Source: Gammaproteobacteria bacterium
GTDB lineage: Bacteria > Pseudomonadota > Gammaproteobacteria > Eutrophobiales > Eutrophobiaceae
Length of the DNA: 64,000 nt
Direction of reading: 5' to 3'
Assembly (NCBI GenBank): GCA_965261165.1
Contig: OZ253445.1
Coordinates: 845,987 to 909,986, forward strand
Positions within the stretch are counted from its first letter, which is position 1. Every line of letters starts with the position of its first letter. Below are positions 29,759 through 64,000 of the stretch, one piece after another. The position numbers and the translations under genes were made by a program. The notes beneath the pieces were generated by a model. It searched no databases and had not been told where the DNA came from. It worked only from the letters and a program-made list of their open reading frames with translations.

Positions 29759-31270
29759 TTGCAAATTAAACCGCAAAAGAATTATTTACTGAAACTCATA
29801 AGCTGCTTCCTGTCAGGTGCGCTATTACCTCTGGCTTTTTCTCCCTATGACTACCCTGCTATCGCCATCCTTTCATTGGCATGGTTATTTTATGCAATTC
29901 TGAATAGCACACCCAATCATGCAGGGATCTTAGGATATATCTTTGGCTTTGGCATGTTTGGCGTGGGTATCAATTGGTTACATATCAGCATCAACTTATT
30001 TGGTGGAGTTAATCTTGCAGGTGCGCTGATAATTACATTCATACTGGTTGCATTTCTTTCCCTATATCCTGCTTTAGTTGCTTTCGTATACCAATGTTTA
30101 TTTGCCAACAAAGGTATTCTTGCCTTTGTCATTGTAATGCCCGCACTATGGGTACTGACCGAATGGTTGCGCTCCTGGATTCTTACCGGGCTACCCTGGC
30201 TGAATATTGCTTATACCCAAACTGATACTTCTATATCCTCTCTGGCTCCTTTGCTTGGGCAATATGGCGTAAGCTGGTTCACAGCATTTATTTCAGCATT
30301 ACTCGTAGCAATGTTTTTGGGAGCCAAGAAGGTAAAGATTATTCTCATTGGAATCTTCTTCATATCATGGCTTGGCCTGAATGCACTAAATGACATTCAC
30401 TGGACGACGGATAGAAATGCTGATATTACAGTGGCTCTGGTTCAAGGCGCTATTCCACAAGAGATGAAATGGAAGCCAGAACAAAGACAGAGGACACTCG
30501 ATCTCTATATCTCGCTATCAGAAGAGCATCAAGATAGCCAATTGATCATTTGGCCTGAAACAGCTGTCCCTGTATTACATCATCAAGCTCAAGAATTTAT
30601 AAATGTAATGACATCAAGAGCAAAAAATCAGAACCATGATTATCTGGTTGGCATTCCTTTCAGTGATCAAAATTCAAATAAATTTTATAACGGTATTACC
30701 GTGATTGGCAGTACCAATGATATCTACTACAAACAACATCTGGTACCATTTGGGGAATATTTACCTTTTGATAAATGGCTGCGCCCTATTCTTGACCTGA
30801 TGAAGATTCCGATGCCTGATTTTAGTCCAGGACCTGATAAAAAACCTGTGATCCGTGCTGCTGGAGAAGTTATTGGCGTATCAATTTGTTATGAAGATGT
30901 CTTTGGTGAAGAAGTTATTACAGCATTACCTGAGGCAACAATATTGGTAAATATTAGCAATGATGCCTGGTTCGGCGACTCCATTGCCCCGCACCAACAT
31001 TTACAAATGGCAAGGATGCGAGCATTGGAAACAGGTCGCTATATGCTGCGCTCAACCAATACAGGCATCAGCGCCATTATCAACGAAAAGGGAATTATTA
31101 CTGCAAGCTCACCACAATTCACTCCGCATGTGACTAGCGATACAGTAAAAACTTTTGAAGGATTAACACCCTACGCAAGGTCTGGAAATTCACCAGTAAT
31201 CATCGCTGCATTTTTAGTATTGTTGATTCATTTTTTTAGACACAGAAAACCATCTACGGCTAACATCTAG
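29759..31270 (+). CDS. lnt: apolipoprotein N-acyltransferase
   Basis: 503 aa; N-terminal multi-TM region plus a C-terminal nitrilase-fold CN-hydrolase domain. Confidence 0.85.
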   Translation: MQIKPQKNYLLKLISCFLSGALLPLAFSPYDYPAIAILSLAWLFYAILNSTPNHAGILGYIFGFGMFGVGINWLHISINLFGGVNLAGALIITFILVAFLSLYPALVAFVYQCLFANKGILAFVIVMPALWVLTEWLRSWILTGLPWLNIAYTQTDTSISSLAPLLGQYGVSWFTAFISALLVAMFLGAKKVKIILIGIFFISWLGLNALNDIHWTTDRNADITVALVQGAIPQEMKWKPEQRQRTLDLYISLSEEHQDSQLIIWPETAVPVLHHQAQEFINVMTSRAKNQNHDYLVGIPFSDQNSNKFYNGITVIGSTNDIYYKQHLVPFGEYLPFDKWLRPILDLMKIPMPDFSPGPDKKPVIRAAGEVIGVSICYEDVFGEEVITALPEATILVNISNDAWFGDSIAPHQHLQMARMRALETGRYMLRSTNTGISAIINEKGIITASSPQFTPHVTSDTVKTFEGLTPYARSGNSPVIIAAFLVLLIHFFRHRKPSTANI

Positions 31271-52205: not shown

Positions 52206-53885
52206 ATGACAAAGCCTTTAAATCGCTACAGTTCGCGCATTACTCAACCCAAATCACAAGGCGCATCACAGGCCATGCTTTATGGTACTGGCATGACACG
52301 CGAAGATATGAATAAGCCACAGGTAGGCATCTCCAGCATTTGGTATGAAGGAAATACCTGCAATATGCACTTATTATCTCTGGCTGAGAAAATTAAAGAA
52401 GGTGTGGTCAGGGCAGGGTTAATCGGCATGCGTTTTAACACCATTGGCGTCAGTGATGGCATTTCCATGGGCACAGATGGCATGAGTTATTCACTACAAT
52501 CTCGCGACTTGATTGCTGATTCTATCGAAACCGTTATGAGCGCCCAATGGTATGACGCCAACGTCTCTATCCCTGGCTGCGATAAAAATATGCCCGGTTG
52601 TATTATCGCTATGGGTCGCTTAAATCGCCCAGCCTTAATGGTCTATGGCGGCACGATCAAGCCGGGACATCGCGGCGAACAGAAGCTCGACATCATCTCA
52701 GCATTCCAGAGCTATGGTGAATTTATTGTTGGCAGTATTGACGAAGACACACGTCAGGACATTGTCAGTAAATCCTGCCCTGGTGCAGGTGCCTGCGGCG
52801 GAATGTATACCGCCAACACCATGGCATCCGCCGTTGAAGCTATGGGCATGTCACTGCCTTATAGCTCTTCTACACCTGCCGTTGAGCCGGGCAAACTTGA
52901 TGAATGTTTACGTGTTGGTACAGCCATTAAAAATTTACTGGAAAAAGATATCAAACCGCGTGACATCATGACACGTGAAGCATTTGAAAATGCCATTGTC
53001 TTGATCATCGTGCTCGGCGGCTCAACCAATGCCGTACTTCATTTAATAGCCATGGCACGTTCAGTCGATGTCGAATTAACCATTGATGATTTCCAGACAG
53101 TCAGTGACCGAACACCGTTCCTTGCTGATCTAAAACCCAGTGGTCAATATGTTATGGAAGATTTGCATCTTGTCGGCGGTATCCCTGCCGTTATGAAATG
53201 CCTTTTAGACAACAATATGATTAATGGCGACTGTCTCACTGTGACCGGCAAAACGATTGCTGAAAATCTTGCCGATGTTCCAGGCTTAAATGAAGGGCAA
53301 GAAGTGATTCATGCTTTGGATAACCCTATCAAAGAAACTGGACATTTAAGAATCCTTAAAGGCAACCTAGCACCAGGCGGTAGCGTTGCAAAGATCACTG
53401 GCAAAGAAGGCATGAACTTTACTGGCCCTGCAAAAGTTTACGATTCTGAAGAAGACATGCTCAAGGCATTAGAAGCTAAAGACATCAGTAAAGGCGATGT
53501 TATTGTGATTCGTTATGAAGGTCCAAAAGGTGGTCCCGGCATGCCCGAAATGTTAACACCTACCTCAGCTATCATGGGAGCAGGTTTAGGATCTGATGTT
53601 GCCATGATCACCGATGGTCGTTTTTCTGGAGGCTCACACGGCTTCATCATTGGTCATGTCGTGCCGGAAGCTCAAGAAGGCGGACCCATCGCGCTCATCA
53701 AAACAGGTGATATCATTACCGTGAACGGTGAAACCAATATGATCAATGTTGATCTCTCTGATCAAGAACTGGCACAAAGAAAAAAATACTGGGTAATGCC
53801 TCCGTACAAGACATCAAGAGGCACGCTCTATAAATACACCAAGAATGTAAGATCTGCTTCAGATGGGTGCGTTACTGACGAGTAA
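52206..53885 (+). CDS. ilvD: dihydroxy-acid dehydratase
   Basis: 559-aa ILVD/EDD-family sequence with the CDKNMPG and SGGSHGFI motifs. Confidence 0.9.
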
Positions 53886-53889
53886 ACCA

Positions 53890-54130
53890 CCAAGTTCAGT
53901 TGACGCTAGCGCGTCCATTTATCAATCGCCGTAACGAAGTCGTACTGCGTACCAGTGGCACCTACACCAATTACGGCGGCAGCAAAGTCAGCGCCCGACT
54001 TGGCGGCAACGATGCGATTTCATACCAAGTCCCGGGCAGCCAGTTCGATCTCCGGTGTCTATGTGGGGATTAGCCTACATCACGCCATCAAGGACAACGC
54101 AACCGTAGGCGGCGACATCGAATAACCCCC
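53890..54130 (+). pseudogene. unidentified gene fragment (short C-terminal remnant, frameshifted)
   Basis: Two frames read as ...LRTSGTYTNYGGSKVSARLGGNDAISYQVPGSQFDL... and ...GVYVGISLHHAIKDNATVGGDIE*, with no start; it looks like a decayed coding remnant. Confidence 0.2.
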
Positions 54131-54136
54131 TCGCCT

Positions 54137-54346
54137 TCAGTGCACTCCGCTCTGTTTGACATAACAGTCAAGTTTTAGACGGATTATTCCCCCCGGCCCG
54201 GCCCGGGCTCCCCTCATCAGAGAGCTGGGTTCGTAACCAGCGTTAGAACCCCCCCCTAAATCCTCCTTACTAGGGGGCTTTGTGCGTTGGTTGTTGAAAT
54301 TCGGCTTTGGCCGCGCAAGCCTGTGAAACCTAGGTCTCCGCACCAA
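54137..54346. repeat. GC-rich MITE-like repeat copy (inverted relative to the copy at 58255-58403)
   Basis: ...aacccccccctaaatcctccttactagggggctttg... matches the reverse complement of 58320-58365 (aacccaacccccctaaatcccccttatcagggggactttc); contains the palindromic C/G tracts ccggcccggcccggg. Confidence 0.45.
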
Positions 54347-54596
54347 AAATTAAAAATTTCAGACAAAATGCTGTCTTAACCATCAACTTATTTTGAACTT
54401 TCATCGGTTGATTTTGAGACGACTGTACCATTGATAATTTCACCATCCATTCCATATCCACTCATAAACAATAGTCATAATGATAATCCATGACGCAACC
54501 CGTCTATTCTCTGGCATAATGAACGTCAAAAGGTTGTTTTGATTTCAATGCCCCATAAGACACAACAAGTAATTTCCGTCTCACAGCACATACAGA

Positions 54597-54857
54597 ATGC
54601 CACTTTGCTATCAGTGCCTCTATCCCGAGCAGAATATCGCCAGCGCGAGCTGCTCAAGGGAAGGTGTTGTCGCGCCGTTAGTCGGCATCATCGGCATCAT
54701 GCAAGCGATGGAAGCAATCAACATATTGCTCGGCGATGGACAGTTGCCTGGCATAGTGTGGCTATTTGACGGCACCAGCATGGCATGGCAGAAAATGAAA
54801 CTCCCTAAGAATCCTGCTTGCCGCGCTTGTGGTGATTCAACATTGACGGAAAATTGA
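54597..54857 (+). pseudogene. moeB: molybdopterin-synthase adenylyltransferase MoeB/ThiF-family, C-terminal ~85-aa fragment only
   Basis: ...CYQCLYPE...GVVAPLVGIIGIMQAMEAINILLG...PACRACG matches the MoeB C-terminal region including the CxxC pair; there is no N-terminal Rossmann part upstream. Confidence 0.6.
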
Positions 54858-54867
54858 CGGAAATTTA

Positions 54868-57800
54868 ATGAACAGCAAATTCTTTACCAACTGCCAGGAA
54901 AACACCTTATTCAACAAACTTGAAGGCATTTTTCAGCACAACCAAAGCATCAATAATTTTGATGTTCTGGTCGGTTATTTCCGCTCTTCAGGTTATTTCA
55001 AACTGCGACCATTGCTGGAAAATGTAGCCCACATCCGCATTCTGGTGGGTATCGATGTCGATAAAATAACCACACAAATGCACGCGGATGGATTAGCCTT
55101 ATTCAATGGAGACCGCGAAAAAACCATCAAAGACTGGCAGAAGAAATTCAGCACTGATGTTCAAGAAGCTAATTATGAACAACAAACCGAGCAGGGCATT
55201 GTGCAGTTTATTGCGGATATAAAAACCAAAAAAGTGCAAATCAAAGCACATCCGAGCCGCGCCATTCACGCCAAGATATATATTTTTCGCCCCGATGATT
55301 ACAACCCGCATAAAGGCGGCAGTGTGATTACCGGCTCGTCAAACCTCACCGATGCCGGACTCGGGACAGGAAGCAGTTCTAATTACGAATTTAATGTGTT
55401 GTTAAACGATTATAACGATATTCAATTCGCCACTGCCGAGTTCGAAAAATTATGGCAGGAAGGCATAGAAGTACTGCCACAAGTCGCCGAAGACAGCCTC
55501 AAAAAAACCTATTTAGCCGATAACATCACGCCCTATGAACTGTATTTGAAATGCCTGATTGAATATTTTGGTGCGGAAATTGAATTTGACCCGAACTCCA
55601 TTAAAGACTTGCCCGCTGACTTCAAACGCCTGTCCTATCAAATGGATGCGGTGAATGAAGGCTGGCAAATGCTAAAAAAACACAATGGGTTTTTTCTCGC
55701 CGATGTGGTGGGCCTGGGCAAAACCGTTATTGCTGTTTTAATTGCGCGTCAGTTTTATTACCACAATGGCTATCCTGATTATCGGTCTAAAATTTTATTG
55801 GTGATTCCACCAGCATTGAAACAAAACTGGGTCGATACCTTAAAAAGTTTTAGCATTGATGATGCTTTTAAGATTATTACCAACGGCAGTTTGCACAAGA
55901 TTAGCAACGCCAAAGACTATGACATGGTCATTGTCGATGAGGCACATAAATTTCGCAACGATAGCGCAGAAGCTTACGACCAATTACAACGCATTTGCAA
56001 AACCAAAACCGAACACGATAAGGGCAAGGGCGGCAGAGATAAAAAAGTGATGCTCATTTCCGCCACGCCGCTGAATAATCGCCCTGATGATTTATACAAC
56101 CAGATTTTATTGTTCCAAGACGGCAACAACTCAACGCTTGATTTCCCACTGGGCAGTTTCTTTAGCAAAGCAAAAAAAGAATATCAAGATATTTTGAAGC
56201 TGGCGGATAAACATCAAGCCGGGCAAAAAACAGCAGCACTGTATGAAAAAATCCGCGCAAGAGTCATTGCTCCGCTTATGGTGCGCCGAACCCGTACTGA
56301 TTTATTGGCAAATAAGCGTTACCAACAAGATTTGCTGGAACATGGCGTTGTGTTCCCCAAAACAACCCCGCCAAAACCCGTGTATTGTCAACTGGAGGCA
56401 GGATTAGAAAAATTATACGATAACACCGTCAAAAAAATAGATAACAAACATCGAAATAAAAGCGGCTTACTGCATACCCGCTACCGTGCCTTGCATTACC
56501 TAAAGCCTGAACTCAAACAACAATACACAAGAGCAGATTTTATTGCTGATCGCTTGGTCGGCATTATGAAAACACTATTGCTGAAAAGAATGGACAGCAG
56601 TTTTTATGCCTTTGGGCAAACCTTGGGGCGTTTTATCAGATCTTCTGAAGCTATGTTAAAGATGATTGACAACAATAAAATCATTATCGCGCCAAATCTT
56701 GATGTAAATAGTTATATATTGGACGGCAACGAAGACGAGTTAATGGAAGTAATTGCCACTGAAAGTCTGACCGACCCCAGCATTATTGTGTGTTGCCGTG
56801 ATGATTTTGAAGCTGGTTTTATTGATGGCATCAAACACGACTATGCCCTGTTAAAAACCATGAAATCGGACTGGGACAATATAACTGAAGAAATCGGCGA
56901 TCCAAAATTGCATGAGTTTTTAACCCAACTACCAAATTTTTTAGACAAACAAAACAATCCACAGCAGAAAATCGTGCTGTTTACCGAAAGCACCGACACC
57001 ATGCGCTATCTGACAGCGGAAATAGAACAAACCAAATACGGCGAGAAAACGCTCAGCGTCAATGCTCAAAACCGCAATCAACTCAAGCAAGCCATTGCAC
57101 AGGATTTTGATGCCAATATAGATGCCGCAGACAAGCTAAATAGCCATCAAATTCTCTTAACCACAGATGTATTAGCCGAGGGCGTGAATCTGCACCGAGC
57201 CAACACGGTGATCAATTATGATACGCCGTGGAATGCCACCAAACTGATGCAACGCATCGGCCGGGTCAACCGTATCGGACAAACCGCCAGCCATATCTTT
57301 GTCTATAACTTCTATCCAACCGCACAAATTGACGATGATATTGCGCTACGAAGAAGAGCACTGATTAAACTACAAGCCTTTCACTCGGCCCTAGGCGAAG
57401 ACTCACAAATTTATTCAACCGATGAAAAAGTCGATACATTCGGTATATTTGATGAAAATATCAAAGAAGAAGTGAATGAAACCATCCCGTTTTTAGAAGA
57501 AATACGGCAGTTCAGGAAAAATGACCCAGCCGCCTATAAACGCATCAAGGGGTTGCCGAGCAAGGTCAGAAATGCAGTAAAAAATACCGCCCATCAAGGC
57601 GGCGCCCTGGTTTTTGCGCGCACCGAAGGCAAGGGCAGCAGTCGGTTTTATGTGGTAAAACCTGAACTAGACAATGCCAGCAATGAAAATAACATTGCCC
57701 CTTTTATTAAAACCTACAGCTTTATTCAAACCGCCAAATTATTAAGATGCAGCCCCGACACCCAAGCGACAAAATTACCCGAACAACACCACAGCCAAGT

Positions 57801-58194
57801 AGTATCGGCATTAGATAAATTCAAGCAGGAAACAGCACAAGACATTGTCAATGAAAATCAAAATAAAACCTTATCCACGACAGAAAAAAAGGCGATTCGC
57901 TTTCTAAAAGCAATGTTAGCCCTCTCCGAAATCAATGCCGCCAATGACGCGGAACCAGACAAAATAAAGCTGGCAATCGAACAAATTAAACAGAAACGCT
58001 TTCAAAACCTAAGCAGAGACATCAACAAATTAAGTAAAAACACTAAGGAAATAAAGCCAATTGTGGTATTGGAAAGAACCTTGAACATCATTCAGAAATA
58101 TGACCTTAACCGCCATATAGAAGATAACCCAGAGCAAGCAAAAAAACCTAAAAACACCCAGCCAACCATCGTCATTTCGCAATCCTACACCTAA
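54868..58194 (+). CDS. phospholipase-D-family (single HKD) nuclease domain fused to an SNF2-family helicase with a long C-terminal extension
   Basis: 1108 aa. HKD motif HAKIYIFRPDD...GSSNLT at about 55267-55340. SNF2 motif I LADVVGLGKTVIA (55711-55725), DEAH box MVIVDEAHKF (55934-55948), motif VI QRIGRVNRIGQ. A ~280-aa C-terminal tail of unknown function. Confidence 0.85.
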   Translation: MNSKFFTNCQENTLFNKLEGIFQHNQSINNFDVLVGYFRSSGYFKLRPLLENVAHIRILVGIDVDKITTQMHADGLALFNGDREKTIKDWQKKFSTDVQEANYEQQTEQGIVQFIADIKTKKVQIKAHPSRAIHAKIYIFRPDDYNPHKGGSVITGSSNLTDAGLGTGSSSNYEFNVLLNDYNDIQFATAEFEKLWQEGIEVLPQVAEDSLKKTYLADNITPYELYLKCLIEYFGAEIEFDPNSIKDLPADFKRLSYQMDAVNEGWQMLKKHNGFFLADVVGLGKTVIAVLIARQFYYHNGYPDYRSKILLVIPPALKQNWVDTLKSFSIDDAFKIITNGSLHKISNAKDYDMVIVDEAHKFRNDSAEAYDQLQRICKTKTEHDKGKGGRDKKVMLISATPLNNRPDDLYNQILLFQDGNNSTLDFPLGSFFSKAKKEYQDILKLADKHQAGQKTAALYEKIRARVIAPLMVRRTRTDLLANKRYQQDLLEHGVVFPKTTPPKPVYCQLEAGLEKLYDNTVKKIDNKHRNKSGLLHTRYRALHYLKPELKQQYTRADFIADRLVGIMKTLLLKRMDSSFYAFGQTLGRFIRSSEAMLKMIDNNKIIIAPNLDVNSYILDGNEDELMEVIATESLTDPSIIVCCRDDFEAGFIDGIKHDYALLKTMKSDWDNITEEIGDPKLHEFLTQLPNFLDKQNNPQQKIVLFTESTDTMRYLTAEIEQTKYGEKTLSVNAQNRNQLKQAIAQDFDANIDAADKLNSHQILLTTDVLAEGVNLHRANTVINYDTPWNATKLMQRIGRVNRIGQTASHIFVYNFYPTAQIDDDIALRRRALIKLQAFHSALGEDSQIYSTDEKVDTFGIFDENIKEEVNETIPFLEEIRQFRKNDPAAYKRIKGLPSKVRNAVKNTAHQGGALVFARTEGKGSSRFYVVKPELDNASNENNIAPFIKTYSFIQTAKLLRCSPDTQATKLPEQHHSQVVSALDKFKQETAQDIVNENQNKTLSTTEKKAIRFLKAMLALSEINAANDAEPDKIKLAIEQIKQKRFQNLSRDINKLSKNTKEIKPIVVLERTLNIIQKYDLNRHIEDNPEQAKKPKNTQPTIVISQSYT

Positions 58195-58254
58195 GCCGTC
58201 ATCCCACTAATCCATATCTGTCACTCCCGCACCGCCCCGTCATTCCTGCGAAAG

Positions 58255-58403
58255 AGACTGTGCAAGAAACCCAACGTTCGTCATTCTTAACCCCCTAGCC
58301 CCCTTATCAGGGGGGAATTGAGTGGAAAGTCCCCCTGATAAGGGGGATTTAGGGGGTTGGGTTTTCCACCAGCGTAACCTAACGAGGTTTTTTACACAGT
58401 CTC
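58255..58403. mobile_element. 149-bp MITE-like element inserted in the loop of a REP-like hairpin, with a 5-bp target duplication
   Basis: The host hairpin gtcattcctgc[gaaag]caggaatccag is split. gaaag occurs at 58250-58254 and again at 58404-58408. The element's ends are imperfect inverted repeats, gagactgtgcaagaaacc versus gagactgtgtaaaaaacc (16 of 18 match); there is an internal palindrome cccccttatcagggggg / ccccctgataaggggg. Confidence 0.5.
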
Positions 58404-58550
58404 GAAAGCAGGAATCCAGTGAAACAACCAAACCGGCCAGGGTTTTCCACCATCAGTGCGGTTATTTTTCTTATTATTTCGCAACCATACACATAACATA
58501 GTACGATACACATCAAACACTAATCGTAACCCACTCAACCGGAGAGACCA

Positions 58551-58796
58551 ATGCTAAACAGCGCTCATAGAACCAATATTGTTTTAGATGAAAATGTCGT
58601 GCAAGAGGCATTAAAACTGAGCAACCTAAAAACCAGGCGCGCTTTGATAGATGCTGCCCTAAGAGAGTTTATCGTTAATCACAAACAAAACAACAGTTTA
58701 GAGGCGTTACGGGATTCATTTGGTGGCAAGAGTCCATTTTTTGAAGGGTATGATTACAAGACTTTGCGTATCAATCCGCATTTACCCGAAGACTGA
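58551..58796 (+). CDS. vapB: VapB-family (DUF2191-type) antitoxin
   Basis: 81 aa; NIVLDENVVQEALKL...RRALIDAALREFI is the DUF2191 antitoxin pattern; sits 6 nt upstream of a PIN toxin. Confidence 0.7.
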   Translation: MLNSAHRTNIVLDENVVQEALKLSNLKTRRALIDAALREFIVNHKQNNSLEALRDSFGGKSPFFEGYDYKTLRINPHLPED

Positions 58797-58802
58797 AGGC
58801 TA

Positions 58803-59216
58803 ATGTCTAAACAGTTAATATATTTAGCAGATACATCGGTGTGGATTGACTTTTTTAATTACAACACAACTGAAAAAATAGAACAATTATTCAAAACCAA
58901 TCAAATCGCATTAACACCGCTTGTCTATATGGAAGTTTTACAAGGTTCTAAAACTCAACAAATACTTGAAAAGATAGATAAAATTTTATTACAGCAAGTT
59001 TTTTATCACCTAAACGATAAACTTATTAGTTATAAGAACGCCGCACTAATTTACTCAAAATGCCGCAAAAAAGGCATTACCATTCGCTCATCCATTGATT
59101 ACCTGATTGCCCAATGTGCCATCGAGAATGAGGTTACCCTGCTCCACAACGATAAAGACTTTGTGCAAATGGCAGGGGTTATCCCAACCTTAAAACAACG
59201 GTATATCGGCGACTAA
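58803..59216 (+). CDS. vapC: PIN-domain toxin VapC
   Basis: 137 aa; N-terminal IYLADTSVWIDF... with the conserved acidic residues of the PIN fold; stop TAA overlaps the ATG of the next gene (TAATG). Confidence 0.8.
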   Translation: MSKQLIYLADTSVWIDFFNYNTTEKIEQLFKTNQIALTPLVYMEVLQGSKTQQILEKIDKILLQQVFYHLNDKLISYKNAALIYSKCRKKGITIRSSIDYLIAQCAIENEVTLLHNDKDFVQMAGVIPTLKQRYIGD

Positions 59217-62200
59217 TGAAACTATTAAACCAAGCCTATAACCAAGACAATTACCTTAATTTTCTGGCAGATCAATTCAACTTTGATAAAAACCTTGCAC
59301 CTATTGAGGTGGAAAGCAAAGAAGTCAACACTTTTACGCGGCTCGGCACCGTTACCAGCCAAGACGGCAAAAAATTACCCGTCTTTGAAATTCATATCAA
59401 GCCCAACACCCAATTAAGCAGAAACCGCGTACAGTTACGCAATCTGGTTGCCAAGCAAATTGGCAGCGAAGACGGTGCTTTAGCCGTTTATGTTGATGAG
59501 GAAAACAAACAATGGCGGTTTAGTTTTATTGCCATTGAATACCGTTTCACCAATGACGGCATTCAACAAGAGCAAACCGCCAGCAAACGCTTTACTTACC
59601 TGTTGGGCGAAAACACCCAAACCAGAACCGCCCAAGACCGCTTTAGCGCACTCAACAAGCAATCCACGCTACAAGACTTAAAAACCGCTTTTTCTGTTGA
59701 AGAGCTGAACAAGGAATTTTACGACAAACTGTATCGCTGGTATGAAAAAGCACAATGCGAAGTCGTATTCCCCAATGACGAACGCACCGACAACCACAGC
59801 CAAACCAGCCTGATTCGCCTGTTGACGCGGTTGTTATTCATCTGGTTTATCAAAGAGAAGGGGCTAATCAAGGCGGATTTATTTGATAAAGATAAATTAC
59901 AAACGCTGATTGATTACGAACAGCCCAGCAGTTTTTACAAGGCGATTCTGCAAAATCTGTTTTTTGCCACCCTCAACCGTCCGGTCACCGAGCGTAGTTT
60001 TCGCAACACAACCAACGGAGCGGCAAATAGCACCAATTATCTGGTCACCAATATCTACCGCTATCAAGATTATTTCATCGATTCGGATAAAGACAAAATC
60101 ATCGCGTTATTTGCCCAAACGCCCTTTCTCAACGGTGGCTTGTTTGAATGCTTAGACCGAGAGGCAAGCGATGCAGAAAAACAGGCTTACGATAATGATA
60201 AAACGATTCGCCCGATAGGCAGTGCCATTCGGATTGATGGCTTTTCCGATAGAGCTGATAATGAATTGGTTTTTCATAATCACCTATTTTTCAAGGACAC
60301 TATTTTCAATGACAATAAGCAGGACGATAAGCAGGATTTAGGCTTGATTGACTTGTTCAATCAATACCAGTTCACCGTTGAGGAAAGCACGCCGCTGGAT
60401 GTCGAAGTCGCCCTTGACCCCGAGCTATTGGGCAAGGTGTTTGAAAACCTGCTCGCCAGTTATAACCCCGAAACCGGACAACAGGCGCGCAAAGCCACCG
60501 GCAGTTTTTACACCCCGCGTGAAATTGTCAATTATATGGTCGATGAAAGCCTGAAACAGCATTTTCATCAGCACACCGACCTAACAGACGAGCAGATCAA
60601 TGCCCTGTTTGTTGACGCTGAATTCACCGAACAAGAAAACGCCCTCAATAAGCAACAAACAAAAGCCCTGATTTATGCCATAGATGGGCTAAAAATCCTT
60701 GACCCAGCGGTGGGCAGTGGTGCGTATCCGATGGGCATATTGCAACGGCTAGTGCTGATTTTAGAAAAAGTGGATGCAGAAAACACCCATTTCAAACAAC
60801 AGCAAATCGACAAGGCAGAACAAATCCCCGATGAAGCCAGTTGCGCCAGTGCCATAGCGGCGATAGAGCAGGTCTTTTCACAACAAAATCAGCATAACGC
60901 CTATGGCAAGAAATTAATGTTGATAGAAAACTGTATTTATGGCGTGGACATTCAACCCATCGCCATTCAAATCTGCAAGCTGCGCTTTTTTATCAGCCTG
61001 ACCATTGAACAAAGCCCTAACAAAAACAAAGCCGATAATTACGGCATCAAAGCCTTACCGAATTTAGAAACTAAGTTTATTGTTGCGAATAGTTTGCTGC
61101 CTTTGGGTGAGATGCCAAAACAAAAAGGGATATTTGATACTGGTATCGAAGAATTACAAACAAAATTAGCCCAAGTCAGGCACAAGCATTTTAGTGCCAA
61201 GACCTTAACCACCAAACGCAAATACCGCGATAAAGATAAAGACTTACGCGAGCAAATGCTGGAAGAATTAACCAAAAGCGGTGTCACTCCAGCCGTTGAA
61301 GCCAGCATGAAAAGAATCGTTCATTGGGATTTATACAATCAAAATGCAGTAGCCGATTGGTTTGATCCCAAATGGATGTTTGGCGTGGATAGTTTTGATA
61401 TTGTGATTGGTAACCCGCCGTATATCCGTCATGAATCCATTAAAGAGTTTAAGCCACAATTTGAGAAAAGTTTTTCTGTTTTTGTCGGCACTGCTGATAT
61501 TTATACCTATTTTTATGAAAAAGGCGTGCAGCTACTCAATGATAATGGACATTTATGCTACATCACCTCCAACAAATGGATGCGGGCAAAATATGGTGAA
61601 AAGTTGCGCGGCTTTTTCAAAGACAAAACCCAGCTCAAACAGATTATTGATTTTGAAGGGCAGCAGGTTTTTGAAAATGCCACAGTGGACACCAATATTC
61701 TGCTCTGCGGTAAAACTGCAAACACGCAAACCACACCCCCACTCTCGCCCAGTCATACCTATTCCCACCCTCGTCATTCCCGCCCCCACCCTCGTCATTC
61801 CCGCCCCCACCCCCGTCATTCCTGCCCCCACCCCCGTCATTCCTGCCCCCACCCCCGTCATTCCTGCGAAAGCAGGAATCCAGAGACTAACCCGCCAGCC
61901 AGTTTTCAATATCAAAAACAATTACCCGACGAGAACAACCCATTATTTAATATGGCGATTGGCGACTTATCAGCCAATGCTTACACCTTGCAGGCACCCG
62001 AAATTTTAGCCCTGAAAAAGAAAATAGAACAAATCGGCACACCATTAAAAGATTGGGATATTCGTATTAACTACGGCATAAAAACAGGTTTTAACGAGGC
62101 TTTTATTATCAACACCGCCAAACGAGACGAGTTAATAACGCAAGACCCGAAATCCACGGAAATCATCAAACCTATTTTACGCGGCAGGGACATCAAAGCA

Positions 62201-62839
62201 TATCAACACCATTGGGCGGGGTTGTGGTTGATTGCTACTTTTCCAGTATTAAAAATAAATATTGACCATTACCCCGCCATTAAAAACCATTTATTAAGTT
62301 TTTCAAAAGACCGATTAGAGCAGGCAGGAAAGAGGTTGCCAGATGGCAAAAAATCAAGGAAGAAAACAGGGAATAAATGGTTTGAAACTCAAGACCAAAT
62401 CGGCTATTACGAAGAATTTGCGAAGGAAAAGATTGTTTATAATGATATTACTAACAAGCTCTCTTTTTCATTGTCAGAGGCTGGTGAATATTTTAACAAT
62501 ACTGTCTATTTTGTTGCTAACAACAATGACATTCTTTTTCAGTTAGCGGTTCTTAACTCTAATTTAATCGACTGGTATTACAAACAAATATCAGTTCAAT
62601 TAGGGGCTGGAACTGTAAGAATGTTTAGTATTTATGTTGAACAACTCCCCATCCCGCAAATATCAAAACCAGCACAACAACCGTTTATAGCCTTAGTCGA
62701 TAAAATCCTCACCGCTAAACAACAGGGGCAAGACACCCGCACACTGGAAACCCAAATCGACCAGATGGTATATCAACTTTATGACCTCACCGACGATGAG
62801 ATTGGCATTATTGAGAATAGAAAATGTATGACAATATGA
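59216..62839 (+). CDS. MmeI/PglX-family gamma-class N6-adenine DNA methyltransferase with N-terminal nuclease-like and C-terminal target-recognition domains (Type IIL/IIG RM, BREX PglX or DISARM DrmMI-like)
   Basis: 1207 aa. The helical-domain motifs SLIRLLTRLLFIWFIKEKGLI, LFFATLN and PFLNGGLFE parallel those of MmeI. Motif X ...FYTPREIV; motif I DPAVGSGAYP; motif IV GNPPYI (61412-61423). The N-terminal YVD...IEYR aligns with the MmeI catalytic FVD...IEMK, with Lys replaced by Arg. Confidence 0.85.
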   Translation: MKLLNQAYNQDNYLNFLADQFNFDKNLAPIEVESKEVNTFTRLGTVTSQDGKKLPVFEIHIKPNTQLSRNRVQLRNLVAKQIGSEDGALAVYVDEENKQWRFSFIAIEYRFTNDGIQQEQTASKRFTYLLGENTQTRTAQDRFSALNKQSTLQDLKTAFSVEELNKEFYDKLYRWYEKAQCEVVFPNDERTDNHSQTSLIRLLTRLLFIWFIKEKGLIKADLFDKDKLQTLIDYEQPSSFYKAILQNLFFATLNRPVTERSFRNTTNGAANSTNYLVTNIYRYQDYFIDSDKDKIIALFAQTPFLNGGLFECLDREASDAEKQAYDNDKTIRPIGSAIRIDGFSDRADNELVFHNHLFFKDTIFNDNKQDDKQDLGLIDLFNQYQFTVEESTPLDVEVALDPELLGKVFENLLASYNPETGQQARKATGSFYTPREIVNYMVDESLKQHFHQHTDLTDEQINALFVDAEFTEQENALNKQQTKALIYAIDGLKILDPAVGSGAYPMGILQRLVLILEKVDAENTHFKQQQIDKAEQIPDEASCASAIAAIEQVFSQQNQHNAYGKKLMLIENCIYGVDIQPIAIQICKLRFFISLTIEQSPNKNKADNYGIKALPNLETKFIVANSLLPLGEMPKQKGIFDTGIEELQTKLAQVRHKHFSAKTLTTKRKYRDKDKDLREQMLEELTKSGVTPAVEASMKRIVHWDLYNQNAVADWFDPKWMFGVDSFDIVIGNPPYIRHESIKEFKPQFEKSFSVFVGTADIYTYFYEKGVQLLNDNGHLCYITSNKWMRAKYGEKLRGFFKDKTQLKQIIDFEGQQVFENATVDTNILLCGKTANTQTTPPLSPSHTYSHPRHSRPHPRHSRPHPRHSCPHPRHSCPHPRHSCESRNPETNPPASFQYQKQLPDENNPLFNMAIGDLSANAYTLQAPEILALKKKIEQIGTPLKDWDIRINYGIKTGFNEAFIINTAKRDELITQDPKSTEIIKPILRGRDIKAYQHHWAGLWLIATFPVLKINIDHYPAIKNHLLSFSKDRLEQAGKRLPDGKKSRKKTGNKWFETQDQIGYYEEFAKEKIVYNDITNKLSFSLSEAGEYFNNTVYFVANNNDILFQLAVLNSNLIDWYYKQISVQLGAGTVRMFSIYVEQLPIPQISKPAQQPFIALVDKILTAKQQGQDTRTLETQIDQMVYQLYDLTDDEIGIIENRKCMTI
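61764..61883. repeat. In-frame tandem array of ~5.5 copies of a 21-bp unit (cccaccc[t/c]cgtcattcc[c/t]gcc), ending in an intact REP-like hairpin gtcattcctgcgaaagcaggaatccag
   Basis: Units at 61764, 61785, 61806, 61827 and 61848; translated as HPRHSRPHPRHSRPHPRHSCPHPRHSCPHPRHSC inside the methyltransferase; the same hairpin sequence hosts the MITE at 58238-58419. Confidence 0.8.
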
Positions 62840-64000
62840 ATTTTGCGGAATTTTTTGCTGGTGCAAGTGGACTGGGTGAGGGGTTTATATCAGAAGGATT
62901 TAATCCAATAGCAACGGTAGAGATAAATAAACATTGCTGTGAAACATTAAAGACCCGCTCGGCATACCATTATTTAATGAACAATAATAATGCAGATACT
63001 TACAATGATTATCTTAAAGGAAAAATTAATAAAGATGCTTTATATGCGCAAATTCCAAAAGAGGTTTTAAGCCAAACGATACATCGGGAAATAAATAAAG
63101 CCAACATGCAAGGCATAAAGGACAGCATACGAGAGCAACTGGGTAGCCAGAAATTGGATGTCATATTAGGTGGACCTCCTTGTCAAGCCTATTCAATAAT
63201 TGGGAAATTTAAAAACGGCTATAAAGCAAATGACCATCGGCTTTATTTGTATAAATTTTACATCTCTTTTTTGAAAGAATTTCAACCAAAGATATTTTTA
63301 TTTGAAAATGTTTTAGGGCTTCTATCGCTGGATAAAGGAAATTTATTTAACACTATCAAACAAGAATTTGAAAAAGTAGGCTATAACATCGCCTATAAAG
63401 TATTGGATGCTAGTCAGTACGGCGTATTACAAAAAAGAAAAAGAGTTATATTGGTAGGTATAAAAAAAGGTTTAGGTATAGCGTTTAATTTTGATGAAAT
63501 GGTAGAAACAAAAAACCAATATTTTGTTAAAGATTTATTACAAGATTTGCCTCAATTGCAGGCTGGAAAACATTCAACGAAATACGCCGCTGAAACTAAT
63601 GATTATCTTAAAAAATTTAATATCAGAAACGAACAAGACAATATTCTAACGTGCCACCAATCAAGACCGCACAATGAAAGAGATTTAGAGATTTATAAAA
63701 TAGTTGTTCAGTCGTGGAATAAAGGCAAAGAAAGGTTGAAGTATAGTAAGTTGCCTAATGAATTAATAACCCATAAGAATATAAAATCTTTTTTAGATCG
63801 CTTTAAGGTGGTTGCTGACAATATGCCATATAGCCATACTATGGTGGCACACATTGCTAAAGACGGACATCATTACATCCACCCTGACATCAAGCAAAAT
63901 AGAAGTTTGACGGTAAGAGAGGCGGCAAGAATACAGTCTTTCCCAGATAATTATTTTTTTGAAGGACCAAGAACCGCACAATTTACGCAGGTTGGAAATG
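62836..64000 (+). CDS. DNA (cytosine-5)-methyltransferase (3' end outside window)
   Basis: Open frame from ATG 62836 (or 62824) to the window end; motif I FAGASGLGEGF; motif IV GGPPCQAYS (about 63169-63189); motif VI LFENV (63301-63312); ...QFTQVGN near the end; its start overlaps the stop of the upstream methyltransferase (ATGA). Confidence 0.85.
   Translation, partial: MNFAEFFAGASGLGEGFISEGFNPIATVEINKHCCETLKTRSAYHYLMNNNNADTYNDYLKGKINKDALYAQIPKEVLSQTIHREINKANMQGIKDSIREQLGSQKLDVILGGPPCQAYSIIGKFKNGYKANDHRLYLYKFYISFLKEFQPKIFLFENVLGLLSLDKGNLFNTIKQEFEKVGYNIAYKVLDASQYGVLQKRKRVILVGIKKGLGIAFNFDEMVETKNQYFVKDLLQDLPQLQAGKHSTKYAAETNDYLKKFNIRNEQDNILTCHQSRPHNERDLEIYKIVVQSWNKGKERLKYSKLPNELITHKNIKSFLDRFKVVADNMPYSHTMVAHIAKDGHHYIHPDIKQNRSLTVREAARIQSFPDNYFFEGPRTAQFTQVGN

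What the first reader, a model, noticed from the sequence alone, without database searches (positions are those of the whole stretch)
54868..64000. Co-directional helicase-nuclease / toxin-antitoxin / dual-methyltransferase defence module of unclear family
Four elements sit on one strand within about 9 kb: a PLD(HKD)-SNF2 helicase fusion; vapBC; a 1207-aa MmeI/PglX-family N6-adenine methyltransferase; and a C5-cytosine methyltransferase. The last four genes overlap by start/stop (TAATG, ATGA), so they probably form one operon. No stand-alone restriction endonuclease gene is visible. The parts list resembles DISARM (DrmD SNF2 helicase, DrmC PLD, DrmMI adenine methyltransferase, DrmMII cytosine methyltransferase) but lacks DrmA/DrmB in the visible part. 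It also resembles BREX (PglX-like methyltransferase) but lacks PglZ/BrxC. A PLD domain fused to the SNF2 helicase, with a type II toxin-antitoxin translationally coupled to the methyltransferase, is not a canonical layout. The system continues past the end of the window.
Basis: partly seen in the sequence, partly recalled or inferred. Interest (0 to 1): 0.75.

Follow-up and report, generated by a model that had tools for sequence, protein, structure and literature searches.

The report
Nuclease-helicase plus methylase defence pair
The region is a defence island built from three separate parts, the core being a widespread but untested gene pair in which a DNA-cutting motor protein is almost always encoded next to a large DNA methylase, with a toxin-antitoxin pair lodged between them and a second, mobile methylase cassette attached behind.

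Summary
They are not one system, and they are neither DISARM nor BREX.

(1) The HKD(PLD)-SNF2 gene (54868-58194) and the 1207-aa Eco57I/MmeI/PglX-like N6-adenine methyltransferase (59216-62839) form a conserved pair. In 64 of 65 homologous loci with enough downstream sequence (42-99% identity), the same kind of methylase lies directly downstream on the same strand. This fits an ATP-dependent, Type I/III/ISP-like restriction-modification system. The methylase reads the target, and its N-terminal nuclease-like domain looks degenerate. The HKD-SNF2 protein supplies the motor and the nuclease. Specificity cassettes are swapped between near-identical alleles.

(2) vapBC sits between the pair only in the closest relatives. 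Other loci carry other hitchhiker genes at that position.

(3) The C5 methyltransferase (GC 0.34, against 0.42 for its neighbours) starts a separate mobile cassette. In all five closest relatives it is followed by a double-GHKL, histidine-kinase-like ATPase, and in four of them by a receiver-HEPN protein.

The nearest characterised relative is MANTIS (Gao_RL), whose DUF499 and DUF3780 partners are absent here. HKD-SNF2 fusions in restriction-modification loci were noted computationally long ago, but I found no experimental work on this pair.

The parts
54605..54857 (+). 3' remnant of a ThiF-family gene. Only the equivalent of residues 171-253 of 253 is present. It marks the left edge of the transferred block.
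   Evidence: tblastn with the intact ThiF of L083 matches only 54606-54854 (89% identity). Nucleotide homology to L083 begins at 54605. Pfam ThiF matches profile positions 160-237 only.
54868..58194 (+). HKD(PLD)-nuclease / SNF2-helicase fusion, 1108 aa. It carries one HKD motif (H134, K136, N159, E174; aa 31-196), an SNF2 ATPase core (aa ~255-870), and a family-specific C-terminal tail (aa ~860-1108) of unknown function. It is the inferred restriction (motor plus nuclease) subunit.
   Evidence: Pfam and PADLOC: best PADLOC model is C3a139 'HKD+Snf2', 9e-54. Catalytic residues are invariant. NCBIfam DrmD scores 154.7 bits against a cut-off of 610, and phospholipD_antiphage 143 against 1100. 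The tail is found only at the C-terminus of ~1070-1120-aa proteins.
58242..58415 (.). Nested palindromic repeat element in the 356-nt spacer between HKD-SNF2 and vapB. Outer arms are 30 nt (80% complementary). Inner arms are a perfect 16-nt pair.
   Evidence: the repeat finder. It shares the motif CCCGTCATTCCTGC with the insertion inside the methylase gene. No terminator-like site lies on the + strand there.
58551..58796 (+). vapB antitoxin, 81 aa.
   Evidence: Pfam VapB_antitoxin, 51 bits against a cut-off of 23.4.
58803..59216 (+). vapC PIN-domain toxin, 137 aa. Its stop codon overlaps the methylase start (TAATG).
   Evidence: Pfam PIN. NCBIfam TA_toxin_VapC, 129.6 bits against a cut-off of 80. 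Junction sequence.
59216..62839 (+). Large gamma-class N6-adenine DNA methyltransferase with fused target-recognition domain, 1207 aa. It is the inferred modification and specificity subunit of the pair.
- aa 1-135: restriction-endonuclease-like fold without a conserved catalytic motif.
- aa ~150-420: helical region like MmeI/PglX/HsdM.
- Motif I DPAVGSG: aa 496-502 (nt 60701-60721).
- Motif IV NPPY: aa 733-736 (nt 61412-61423).
- TaqI_C target-recognition domain: aa 985-1146.
61427..62641 (+). Exchangeable specificity cassette of the methylase (aa ~738-1142). The breakpoints lie just after NPPY and before a conserved C-terminal tail.
   Evidence: Window against L082: about 99% protein identity up to residue 737, unrelated from there to ~1142, then conserved again. 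L003 has a third allele with the same breakpoints (window 61426 and 62693/62747). L164 is a partly matching allele.
61725..61910 (+). In-frame insertion specific to the window, about 168 nt, in the linker between the catalytic domain and the target-recognition domain. It consists of a 21-nt x 5 tandem repeat (61764-61867; peptide HPRHS(R/C)P) followed by a small palindrome (GTCATTCCTGCGAAAGCAGGAATCC).
   Evidence: TRF, sequence, motif search with 6 matches against 0.01 expected, and absence from the otherwise 86-92% identical L164 allele.
62836..64000 (+). C5-cytosine DNA methyltransferase, cut by the end of the window (388 of ~410 aa). It is the first gene of a separate mobile cassette.
   Evidence: Pfam DNA_methylase 2e-59. 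Motifs FAGASGLG, PPCQ, ENV and GN are visible in the sequence. GC is 0.336 and GC3 0.29, against 0.42 and 0.46 for the neighbouring genes. It has 92-95% nucleotide identity in L002, L003, L004 and L010, where the upstream context differs.

Best explanation
The region is a composite defence island made of three independent units.

Unit 1 is a two-gene, ATP-dependent restriction-modification-like system: the HKD-SNF2 protein plus the 1207-aa methyltransferase.
- The methyltransferase recognises a short, probably asymmetric, DNA target through its exchangeable recognition domain and methylates one adenine on host DNA.
- On unmethylated foreign DNA it recruits or licenses the HKD-SNF2 protein.
- That protein uses ATP to move along or loop the DNA. 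Because each polypeptide carries only one HKD motif, it must pair with a second copy to form one PLD active site and cut.
- The methylase's N-terminal nuclease-like domain is probably a degenerate relic of a Type IIG/IIL enzyme.

Unit 2, vapBC, is a toxin-antitoxin hitchhiker lodged between the two genes. It is translationally coupled to the methylase and probably stabilises the locus or acts as a back-up.

Unit 3, the C5 methyltransferase, begins a separate mobile cassette whose partners lie beyond the end of the window.

Shown here: gene content, catalytic motifs, the near-obligate linkage of the pair, cassette swapping, and the separability of the units.

Inferred: target-dependent recruitment, translocation, dimer-dependent cleavage, and the role of vapBC.
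For: Linkage of the pair:
- 64 of 65 HKD-SNF2 loci with at least 1.5 kb of downstream sequence carry a homologue of the large methylase downstream on the same strand. Homology includes the N-terminal 600 residues. The gap is usually 6-280 nt.
- L164 has two tandem copies of the pair. Cultured Prevotella sp. oral taxon 299 F0039 also has the pair.

Activity:
- HKD, Walker A/B and motif VI are invariant in 14 homologues.
- Methylase motifs I and IV are intact.

Where the nuclease resides:
- The would-be catalytic positions are not conserved: E58 in 54%, position 62 K in 31%.

Restriction-modification-like behaviour:
- The specificity cassette is swapped between alleles that are about 99% identical up to NPPY.
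- An XRE-type HTH gene lies directly upstream in 25 of 42 loci.
- Inserts between the pair are RhuM/Fic, DUF1016/YhcG, KilA-N, Bro-N, AlbA_2-HATPase_c_4 and AAA_14-DUF4143.

Separability of the units:
- vapBC is present only in the window and L082-L084.
- L082 (99% identical HKD-SNF2) lacks the C5 cassette.
- In L083 the cassette has an N6_N4 methylase and lies between vapBC and the large methylase.
- L002, L004 and L010 have the C5 cassette without the pair.
- The GC content of the C5 gene differs from its neighbours.

Mechanistic precedent: the MANTIS protein MtsD is an N-terminal PLD plus SF2 ATPase that forms a dimer with one PLD site and restricts unmethylated DNA marked by an N6-adenine methylase (bioRxiv 10.64898/2026.09.23.753747).
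Against: - There are no experimental data for any member of this pair that I could find.
- PADLOC's best model for the methylase is 'Type IIG restriction enzyme-methyltransferase' (5e-152). D50 of the N-terminal domain is 96% conserved, so residual nuclease activity cannot be excluded.
- In MANTIS the methylase and nuclease need two further proteins (DUF499 and DUF3780/3870). These are absent here, so the minimal pair may not be self-sufficient.
- 21 of 35 other loci carry a third gene, an ABC-type ATPase, that this locus lacks.
- Two loci have the HKD-SNF2 gene without a methylase (L158; L165). L003 has the methylase without HKD-SNF2.
- The window's methylase carries a 56-aa repeat insertion of unknown effect.
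- The census loci are the best 80 of more than 579 hits, not a random sample.
Confidence: 0.7

Rival explanations
1. All five genes form one integrated system, a DISARM-like or BREX-like variant in which HKD-SNF2 stands for DrmD plus DrmC, the large methylase for DrmMI or PglX, and the C5 methylase for DrmMII. The missing core genes would lie beyond the window.
For: All genes are co-directional, and two junctions overlap. The C5 methylase's best PADLOC model is DrmMII (1.5e-149). HKD-SNF2 hits DrmD models (3.7e-36). In 14 other loci a related C5 methylase sits next to a genuine DrmD (PDLC02619, 1311 bits).
Against: DrmD, PglX and DrmMI scores are far below the family cut-offs (154.7 against 610; 97.5 against 500). 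No DrmA, DrmB, PglZ or BrxC appears in the window. None appears in the 8-10 kb flanks of L082, L083 and L164 (Pfam lists). Downstream of the cassette, L002 has no ORF over 300 aa and L003 none on the cassette strand. The units occur separately in close relatives. In all five closest relatives the C5 methylase is followed by a GHKL ATPase, not a DISARM gene.
Confidence: 0.07
2. The 1207-aa protein is a self-contained Type IIG/IIL restriction-modification enzyme that cuts with its own N-terminal nuclease. HKD-SNF2 is an independent neighbour, for example a SauUSI-like modification-dependent (Type IV) enzyme.
Against: Near-obligate adjacency over a 42-99% identity range is not expected for independent systems. 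No (D/E)xK is conserved in the N-terminal domain, whereas the HKD residues are invariant. No SRA, DUF3427 or other reader of modified bases was detected in HKD-SNF2. A modification-dependent nuclease beside two methylases would risk self-restriction.
Confidence: 0.13
3. The pair is not self-sufficient. It is a module that works only with further factors encoded elsewhere, such as a DUF499-type loader as in MANTIS, or the ABC ATPase seen in most other loci. Alternatively it excludes phage without cutting DNA, as BREX does.
For: MANTIS methylation needs MtsA and MtsB, and restriction needs all four proteins. 21 of 35 related loci have an ABC ATPase directly after the methylase. SNF2 plus PglX-like methylase pairs recur as sub-modules of DISARM class 1, BREX type 3 and ARMADA type II.
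Against: 14 of 35 loci, and all close relatives of the window, lack the ABC ATPase. L164 has a three-gene copy and a two-gene copy side by side. No DUF499 or DUF3780 was seen in any neighbourhood examined. The invariant HKD nuclease argues for cleavage.
Confidence: 0.1

Closest known systems
MANTIS (Gao_RL / Gao_29; BREX-related 'BR' type 2): MtsA-D
   Same: The effector has the same domain order: one N-terminal HKD/PLD nuclease followed by an SF2 (Swi2/Snf2-type) ATPase. It is paired with an N6-adenine methyltransferase that reads a short asymmetric site. Restriction targets unmethylated DNA. The PLD active site forms by dimerisation.
   Different: No DUF499 AAA+ protein (MtsA) and no DUF3780/3870 protein (MtsB) is present here or in any related locus examined. 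The NCBIfam model 'phospholipD_antiphage' scores 143 bits against a cut-off of 1100, and PADLOC PLD_Helicase only 3e-26, so this is a different family of HKD-helicase. The methylase here is Eco57I/TaqI_C-type with an MmeI-like N-terminal part.
DISARM class 1 (DrmD SNF2 helicase, DrmMI adenine methylase, DrmC PLD, DrmA, DrmB)
   Same: An SNF2 helicase, a PLD nuclease domain and a large Eco57I-type adenine methylase occur together. DrmD and DrmMI models give significant partial matches.
   Different: The defining core, DrmA and DrmB (DUF1998), is absent. The PLD domain is fused to the helicase. DrmD scores 154.7 bits against a cut-off of 610.
Type ISP (LlaGI, LlaBIII) and Type III restriction-modification enzymes
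   Same: The logic is the same: nuclease plus SF2 motor plus gamma-class N6-adenine methylase plus recognition domain, with one-strand methylation of an asymmetric site and ATP-driven communication between sites. Here the logic is split into two polypeptides, as in Type III Res/Mod. This comparison rests on established knowledge and is an analogy, not a result tested here.
   Different: The nuclease is HKD/PLD rather than PD-(D/E)XK/Mrr. The motor is SNF2-type. The methylase keeps a degenerate nuclease-like N-terminal domain. No sequence-level family membership was found.
MmeI / DrdV / BpuSI (Type IIL/IIG single-chain enzymes) and BREX PglX
   Different: The catalytic D...(D/E)xK is not conserved. 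The protein has a near-obligate helicase-nuclease partner. No sequence hit to MmeI at E<0.01. PglX scores 97.5 bits against a cut-off of 500.
SauUSI (Type IV) and CglI/NgoAVII (PLD nuclease plus SF2 ATPase restriction enzymes)
   Same: A PLD nuclease is coupled to an ATP-driven SF2 motor. Pfam RE_NgoFVII matches the N-terminal domain.
   Different: SauUSI recognises modified cytosine through its own recognition domain and has no methylase partner. In CglI/NgoAVII the nuclease and the ATPase are separate proteins that work with a C5 methylase (own knowledge).
For the C5 methylase cassette: BbrUII/HgiDII restriction enzymes, MORC/paraMORC GHKL ATPases in restriction-modification operons (Iyer et al. 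2008), and Detocs
   Same: A GHKL ATPase is encoded next to a cytosine methylase. The N-terminal 180 aa match NCBIfam BbrUII/HgiDII. A histidine-kinase-like protein followed by a receiver-effector protein is the Detocs layout (own knowledge).
   Different: The BbrUII/HgiDII match scores 105 bits against a cut-off of 550. The C-terminal half is histidine-kinase-like rather than a known nuclease. No PADLOC system model matched. These partner genes lie outside the window and are inferred from relatives.

Membership tests
DISARM | DrmA helicase and DrmB (DUF1998) core genes present in the locus | tested here: not met
   No DrmA or DrmB hit among the window's ORFs from 47 kb to the end or among ten further large ORFs at 1-47500. 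None in the flanks of L082, L083 and L164. Downstream of the C5 cassette, L002 has no ORF over 300 aa and L003 none on the cassette strand. The window's own sequence beyond 64000 was not seen.
DISARM | DrmD equivalog (class 1 SNF2 helicase) | tested here: not met
   NCBIfam DISARM_DrmD scores 154.7 bits against a cut-off of 610, and DrmD_b 91 against 950. The best PADLOC model is C3a139 'HKD+Snf2', not DrmD.
DISARM | DrmMI or DrmMII methyltransferase | tested here: inconclusive
   The large methylase scores DrmMI 7e-32 against Type IIG 5e-152. The C5 methylase scores DrmMII PDLC02649 1.5e-149. But that C5 subfamily partners with GHKL ATPases in 24 of 80 loci and with DrmD in 14, so the model is not specific to DISARM.
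BREX | PglZ phosphatase and BrxC ATPase present | tested here: not met
   No hits in the window or in the flanks of related loci.
BREX | PglX equivalog | tested here: not met
   NCBIfam BREX_1_MTaseX scores 97.5 bits against a cut-off of 500.
MANTIS / BR type 2 (Gao_RL) | DUF499 AAA+ ATPase (MtsA) and DUF3780/3870 protein (MtsB) in the operon | tested here: not met
   Absent from the window and from all neighbourhoods scanned with Pfam.
MANTIS / BR type 2 (Gao_RL) | Effector with an N-terminal HKD nuclease followed by an SF2 ATPase, next to an N6-adenine methylase | tested here: met
   The domain order and adjacency are shown. As a sequence family it is distinct: NF042964 scores 143 bits against a cut-off of 1100.
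Type IIG/IIL restriction-modification enzyme | Gamma-class N6-adenine methylase with a fused recognition domain in one chain | tested here: met
   Eco57I, N6_Mtase and TaqI_C. Motifs DPAVGSG and NPPY. PADLOC REase_MTase_IIG 5.4e-152.
Type IIG/IIL restriction-modification enzyme | Catalytically competent N-terminal PD-(D/E)XK nuclease in the same chain | tested here: inconclusive
Type II toxin-antitoxin VapBC | VapB antitoxin followed by a PIN-domain VapC toxin, both above the family cut-offs | tested here: met
   VapB_antitoxin scores 51 bits against 23.4. PIN scores 43.3 against 23.6. NCBIfam VapC scores 129.6 against 80.
C5 DNA methyltransferase (Dcm family) | Pfam DNA_methylase above the cut-off, with motifs I, IV, VI and X | tested here: met
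   202 bits against a cut-off of 22. TIGR00675 scores 189 against 100.65. Motifs read in the sequence. The last ~22 residues lie outside the window.
BbrUII/HgiDII restriction enzyme family (partner of the C5 methylase in relatives) | NCBIfam NF050001 equivalog score | tested here: not met
   105 bits against a cut-off of 550, N-terminal 180 aa only. The gene is not in the window.

The most novel reading that the evidence does not exclude
Two readings remain open.

(a) The HKD-SNF2 plus methylase pair is a minimal, self-sufficient, ATP-dependent restriction-modification system of a kind not yet characterised: in effect a split Type ISP/III enzyme with a PLD nuclease. It would do without the DUF499 and DUF3780 loader that its nearest studied relative, MANTIS, requires.

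(b) The cassette that starts with the window's C5 methyltransferase is an undescribed methylation-linked two-component defence system. A MORC-like GHKL sensor fused to a histidine kinase would phosphorylate a receiver-HEPN RNase when it meets unmethylated DNA.

The probability given is that at least one of the two holds as stated.
Probability: 0.35. Interest if true: 0.75.

Novelty: new variant of a known kind. Interest (0 to 1): 0.55.

Why it matters
- The pair is common in bacteria from many phyla and in metagenomes. Homologues are annotated only as 'helicase-related protein' or as a methyltransferase or 'restriction endonuclease', and PADLOC files the methylase under Type IIG. Its restriction half therefore probably goes unrecognised in defence-system censuses.
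- It is the simplest natural version of the HKD-helicase plus adenine-methylase logic that was worked out in 2026 for the four-gene MANTIS system. It offers a direct test of which functions really need the extra ATPase loader.
- The exchangeable specificity cassette, with fixed breakpoints at NPPY and at the C-terminal tail, is a ready-made scaffold for swapping recognition domains.
- The neighbouring Dcm / GHKL-histidine kinase / response regulator triad is also carried by 65 plasmids, 41 of them from Campylobacter and 49 predicted to be conjugative. It may be an unrecognised defence or plasmid-maintenance system.

Tried and rejected
- **Source sequence beyond 64000.** I could not retrieve it. 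The exact-protein look-up returned only a 7.5-kb identical contig that ends in vapC (L001). The 1207-aa protein is not on record. The genome scan gave 94% relatives at best.
- **DISARM, BREX, MANTIS, Hma and Pbe memberships.** I considered and rejected each on missing core genes and on scores below cut-off.
- **Sequence and profile searches of the methylase N-terminus against PDB.** These gave nothing for residues 1-200. Only fold comparison gave weak restriction-endonuclease-fold matches.
- **Promoter and terminator scans of 53800-64000.** Counts did not exceed shuffled controls, so they say nothing about operon structure.
- **Phage collection.** No HKD-SNF2 homologue was found. Only 10 plasmid records matched.
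- **Krishnan et al. 2020 (NAR, ABC ATPase classification).** This paper may describe the three-gene variant with the ABC ATPase. The library does not hold it.
- **PADLOC Pycsar hits of ORF 31267-34080.** These proved to be a cNMP-binding Na+/H+ exchanger, not a defence gene.
- **Literature searches.** No paper naming the pair or the Dcm/GHKL-kinase/receiver triad was found. The library is incomplete, so absence there is not proof of novelty.

Full report
**1. Observation**

The five ORFs exist as described: 54868-58194 (1108 aa), 58551-58796 (81 aa), 58803-59216 (137 aa), 59216-62839 (1207 aa), and a frame open from 62836 to the end of the window.

Pfam assigns them as follows:
- Protein 1: PLDc_2/RE_NgoFVII, SNF2-rel_dom and Helicase_C.
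- Protein 2: VapB_antitoxin.
- Protein 3: PIN.
- Protein 4: Eco57I, N6_Mtase and TaqI_C.
- Protein 5: DNA_methylase.

The junctions TAATG (vapC/methylase) and ATGA (methylase/C5 methylase) are real. vapB and vapC are 6 nt apart rather than overlapping. HKD-SNF2 is separated from vapB by 356 nt that carry a nested palindromic repeat.

Upstream genes are housekeeping: clpA, an argA-like gene, an M20 peptidase and ilvD. Ten further large ORFs at 1-47500 give no DrmA, DrmB, PglZ or BrxC hits.

**2. What the genes are by family score**

- HKD-SNF2. The best PADLOC model is C3a139 'HKD+Snf2' (9e-54). This is a cluster merely listed as a neighbour of type III CRISPR loci by Shah et al. 2018 (PMC6546367). 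DrmD, DpdE, BrxH, HmaA and ZorD models match only the helicase core. NCBIfam DrmD scores 154.7 bits against a cut-off of 610. The 'phospholipase D-like anti-phage protein' model scores 143 against 1100.
- The 1207-aa protein. It scores best as 'Type IIG restriction enzyme-methyltransferase' (5.4e-152), far above DrmMI (7e-32) and PglX (5.5e-22). NCBIfam PglX scores 97.5 bits against a cut-off of 500.
- The C5 methylase. It scores best on a DrmMII model (1.5e-149).

**3. The decisive comparison: neighbours of HKD-SNF2 elsewhere**

The protein family is conserved over its full length (~1085-1110 aa). The 120 best clusters all have at least 48% identity. The HKD residues H134/K136/N159/E174, Walker A, DEAH and motif VI are invariant.

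I collected 80 metagenomic loci at 42-66% identity and two close relatives, L082 (99%) and L083 (89%). Of 65 loci with at least 1.5 kb downstream, 64 carry a homologue of the window's large methylase downstream on the same strand. The gap is usually 6-280 nt, and the homology extends over the methylase's N-terminal 600 residues.

Further cases:
- L164 has two tandem copies of the pair.
- Cultured Prevotella sp. oral taxon 299 F0039 has the pair.
- L165 has HKD-SNF2 alone.

The pair is the unit.

Around the pair:
- The nearest upstream co-directional ORF is an XRE-type HTH protein in 25 of 42 loci, like a controller protein of a restriction-modification system.
- The next downstream gene is an ABC-type ATPase (SMC_N/AAA_23/AAA_15) in 21 of 35 loci. 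This gene is absent from the window's clade.
- No DUF499, DUF3780, DUF1998 or PglZ was seen anywhere.

**4. Anatomy of the methylase**

- Across 48 partner methylases only D50 is conserved (96%). E58 is present in 54%, and the position where the Lys should be is A or K.
- I read this as a degenerate nuclease-like domain. The invariant HKD nuclease of the partner would then be the cutter. This is an inference; biochemistry is needed.
- The catalytic motifs I (DPAVGSG) and IV (NPPY) are intact.
- Compared with L082, the protein is about 99% identical up to residue 737 (just after NPPY), unrelated to about residue 1142, and conserved again in the last 60 residues. L003 carries a third allele with the same breakpoints, and L164 a partly matching one. 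This is specificity-cassette exchange, the hallmark of a methylase under diversifying selection for target sequence.
- The window's allele also carries an in-frame ~168-nt insertion (61725-61910). It consists of a 21-nt x 5 tandem repeat plus a small palindrome that recurs at 58236. Its effect is unknown.

**5. vapBC**

vapBC lies between the pair only in the window, L082, L083 and L084. L003 keeps a vapC remnant in front of an orphaned methylase.

Thirteen other loci have 0.7-1.9 kb inserted at the same position. The ten identified are RhuM+Fic, DUF1016/YhcG, Bro-N, KilA-N, AlbA_2+HATPase_c_4 (four loci) and AAA_14+DUF4143 (two loci). From my own knowledge, this is the same assortment that interrupts Type I hsd operons.

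vapBC is therefore a hitchhiker at a permissive site. In this clade it is stable and translationally coupled to the methylase, in the window and in L082. Its middle part (58658-59061) has been replaced relative to L082, although the flanks are 95-99% identical.

**6. The C5 methylase**

- Its GC content is 0.336 (GC3 0.29), against 0.42 (GC3 0.46) for the pair.
- The gene recurs at 92-95% nucleotide identity in L002, L003, L004 and L010. Homology starts only 13-25 nt upstream of its ATG in L002 and L010.
- L082 lacks it.
- In all five closest relatives it is followed, with overlapping stop and start, by a ~700-aa protein. That protein has an N-terminal MORC/HSP90-like GHKL domain and a C-terminal histidine-kinase-like half with a conserved H-box, N-box and G-boxes.
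- In 17 of 20 such loci the next gene begins with a receiver-like domain. The Asp at the phospho-acceptor position is invariant, and Pfam detects a receiver domain in 5 of 15.
- In the closest relatives the C-terminus of that third protein carries an invariant RNxxAH (HEPN) motif.
- L083 has the same cassette with an N6_N4 methylase, placed between vapBC and the large methylase.
- Annotated records show the same triad. C. jejuni pAR-0413-1 has 'sensor histidine kinase', 'response regulator' and dcm. A B. glumae plasmid has 'ATP-binding protein', a hypothetical protein, vsr and dcm.
- The DrmMII label arises because 14 more distant loci pair this Dcm subfamily with a genuine DrmD. The window's relatives do not.

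What follows 64000 in the window itself was not seen. The GHKL gene there is an inference from 5 of 5 relatives.

**7. Island boundary**

Nucleotide homology to L083 begins at 54605, inside a ThiF-family gene of which only the last 83 codons remain. The block was therefore moved with a piece of its former neighbour and now lies next to ilvD.

**8. Mechanism (inferred)**

- The methylase marks one adenine in a short target on host DNA.
- Unmarked targets on incoming DNA are bound by the same protein, which recruits or licenses HKD-SNF2.
- ATP hydrolysis drives translocation or looping.
- Two HKD domains come together to form one PLD active site, which cuts.
- Site-orientation dependence, as in Type III, Type ISP and MANTIS, is expected.

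The precedent is MtsD of MANTIS: an N-terminal PLD plus SF2 ATPase that forms a dimer with a single PLD site. It acts downstream of recognition by the methylase complex and restricts unmethylated DNA. The difference is that MANTIS needs a DUF499 ATPase and a DUF3780/3870 protein to load the methylase. Those are absent here.

**9. Known or new**

HKD domains fused to SWI2/SNF2 ATPases in bacterial restriction-modification systems were noted by Aravind's group (PMC3417536, citing Iyer et al. 2006). GHKL ATPases beside Dcm genes were noted in PMC2292703. PADLOC holds a model for the fusion.

I found no name, methylome or phage assay for this pair in the libraries available. One possibly relevant paper could not be read.

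I therefore file the pair as a new (minimal) variant of a known kind: ATP-dependent, methylation-based restriction-like systems with an HKD-helicase effector.

The Dcm / GHKL-kinase / receiver cassette may be more novel. It lies outside the window and was followed up only in part.

**10. Limits**

- The census used the 80 best of more than 579 hits, with crude ORF calling.
- All functional statements are inferences.
- The organism names on several MAG records (OZ2534xx) look inconsistent with one another and were not used.

Noticed in passing
Beyond window 64000; seen in L003:11212-14081, L004, L005, L010, L083:14093-18259, L168 (C. jejuni pAR-0413-1), L167 (B. glumae plasmid): The C5 methylase is the first gene of a conserved triad: methylase, then a ~700-aa MORC-like GHKL plus histidine-kinase-like protein, then a receiver-domain protein with a variable effector. 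In the closest relatives the effector is HEPN, with an RNxxAH motif. The GHKL-kinase homologue is on 65 plasmids (41 Campylobacter, 49 predicted conjugative); the triad itself was read in C. jejuni pAR-0413-1. This may be an unnamed methylation-linked two-component defence system.
   Followed up: partly
window 61725-61910 and 58236-58415: A small palindromic repeat element (core GTCATTCCTGCGAAAGCAGGAATCC) occurs in the HKD-SNF2/vapB spacer, where it carries a nested second palindrome. It also occurs in frame inside the methylase gene, preceded by five 21-nt tandem copies of its left arm that encode HPRHS(R/C)P. The insertion is absent from the related L164 allele.
   Followed up: partly
window 54605-54857: Only the last third of a ThiF-family gene is present, immediately upstream of HKD-SNF2. 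The intact gene is in the same position in L083. This marks the recombination edge of the island next to ilvD.
   Followed up: yes
L164:1309-16793 (contig OZ253439.1, the same contig as L002): Two copies of the system lie in tandem. The first has an ABC ATPase as a third gene; the second does not. Both have overlapping start and stop codons.
   Followed up: no
L084-L163, gene directly after the large methylase: In 21 of 35 loci an SMC_N/AAA_23/AAA_15 ABC-type ATPase of 520-640 aa follows the methylase. In 25 of 42 loci an XRE-type HTH gene precedes HKD-SNF2. The fuller form of the system may therefore have four genes. The window's clade has neither extra gene.
   Followed up: partly
window 58658-59061, compared with L082: The central part of vapBC has no nucleotide match to L082, and the proteins are only 62-65% identical. 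The flanking HKD-SNF2 and methylase sequences are 95-99% identical. A vapBC allele has been replaced inside an otherwise near-identical locus.
   Followed up: no
window 31267-34080 (- strand): This 937-aa ORF hits PADLOC Pycsar models (PycTIR 2.7e-28, PycC 1.3e-20). Pfam shows a Na+/H+ exchanger with two cNMP-binding domains. The defence-model hits are caused by the cNMP-binding domains.
   Followed up: yes
L002, L003, L004, L010 (records OZ253439.1, OZ253450.1, OZ253440.1, CBDHDT010000193.1): The record titles name very different taxa (Polaribacter, Spongiihabitans, Fibrobacteria, Ekhidna). Yet the loci share 92-95% nucleotide identity over the C5 methylase cassette, and two of the chromosomes are nearly the same length (2,764,847 and 2,765,189 bp). 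This is either very recent transfer or unreliable labels.
   Followed up: no
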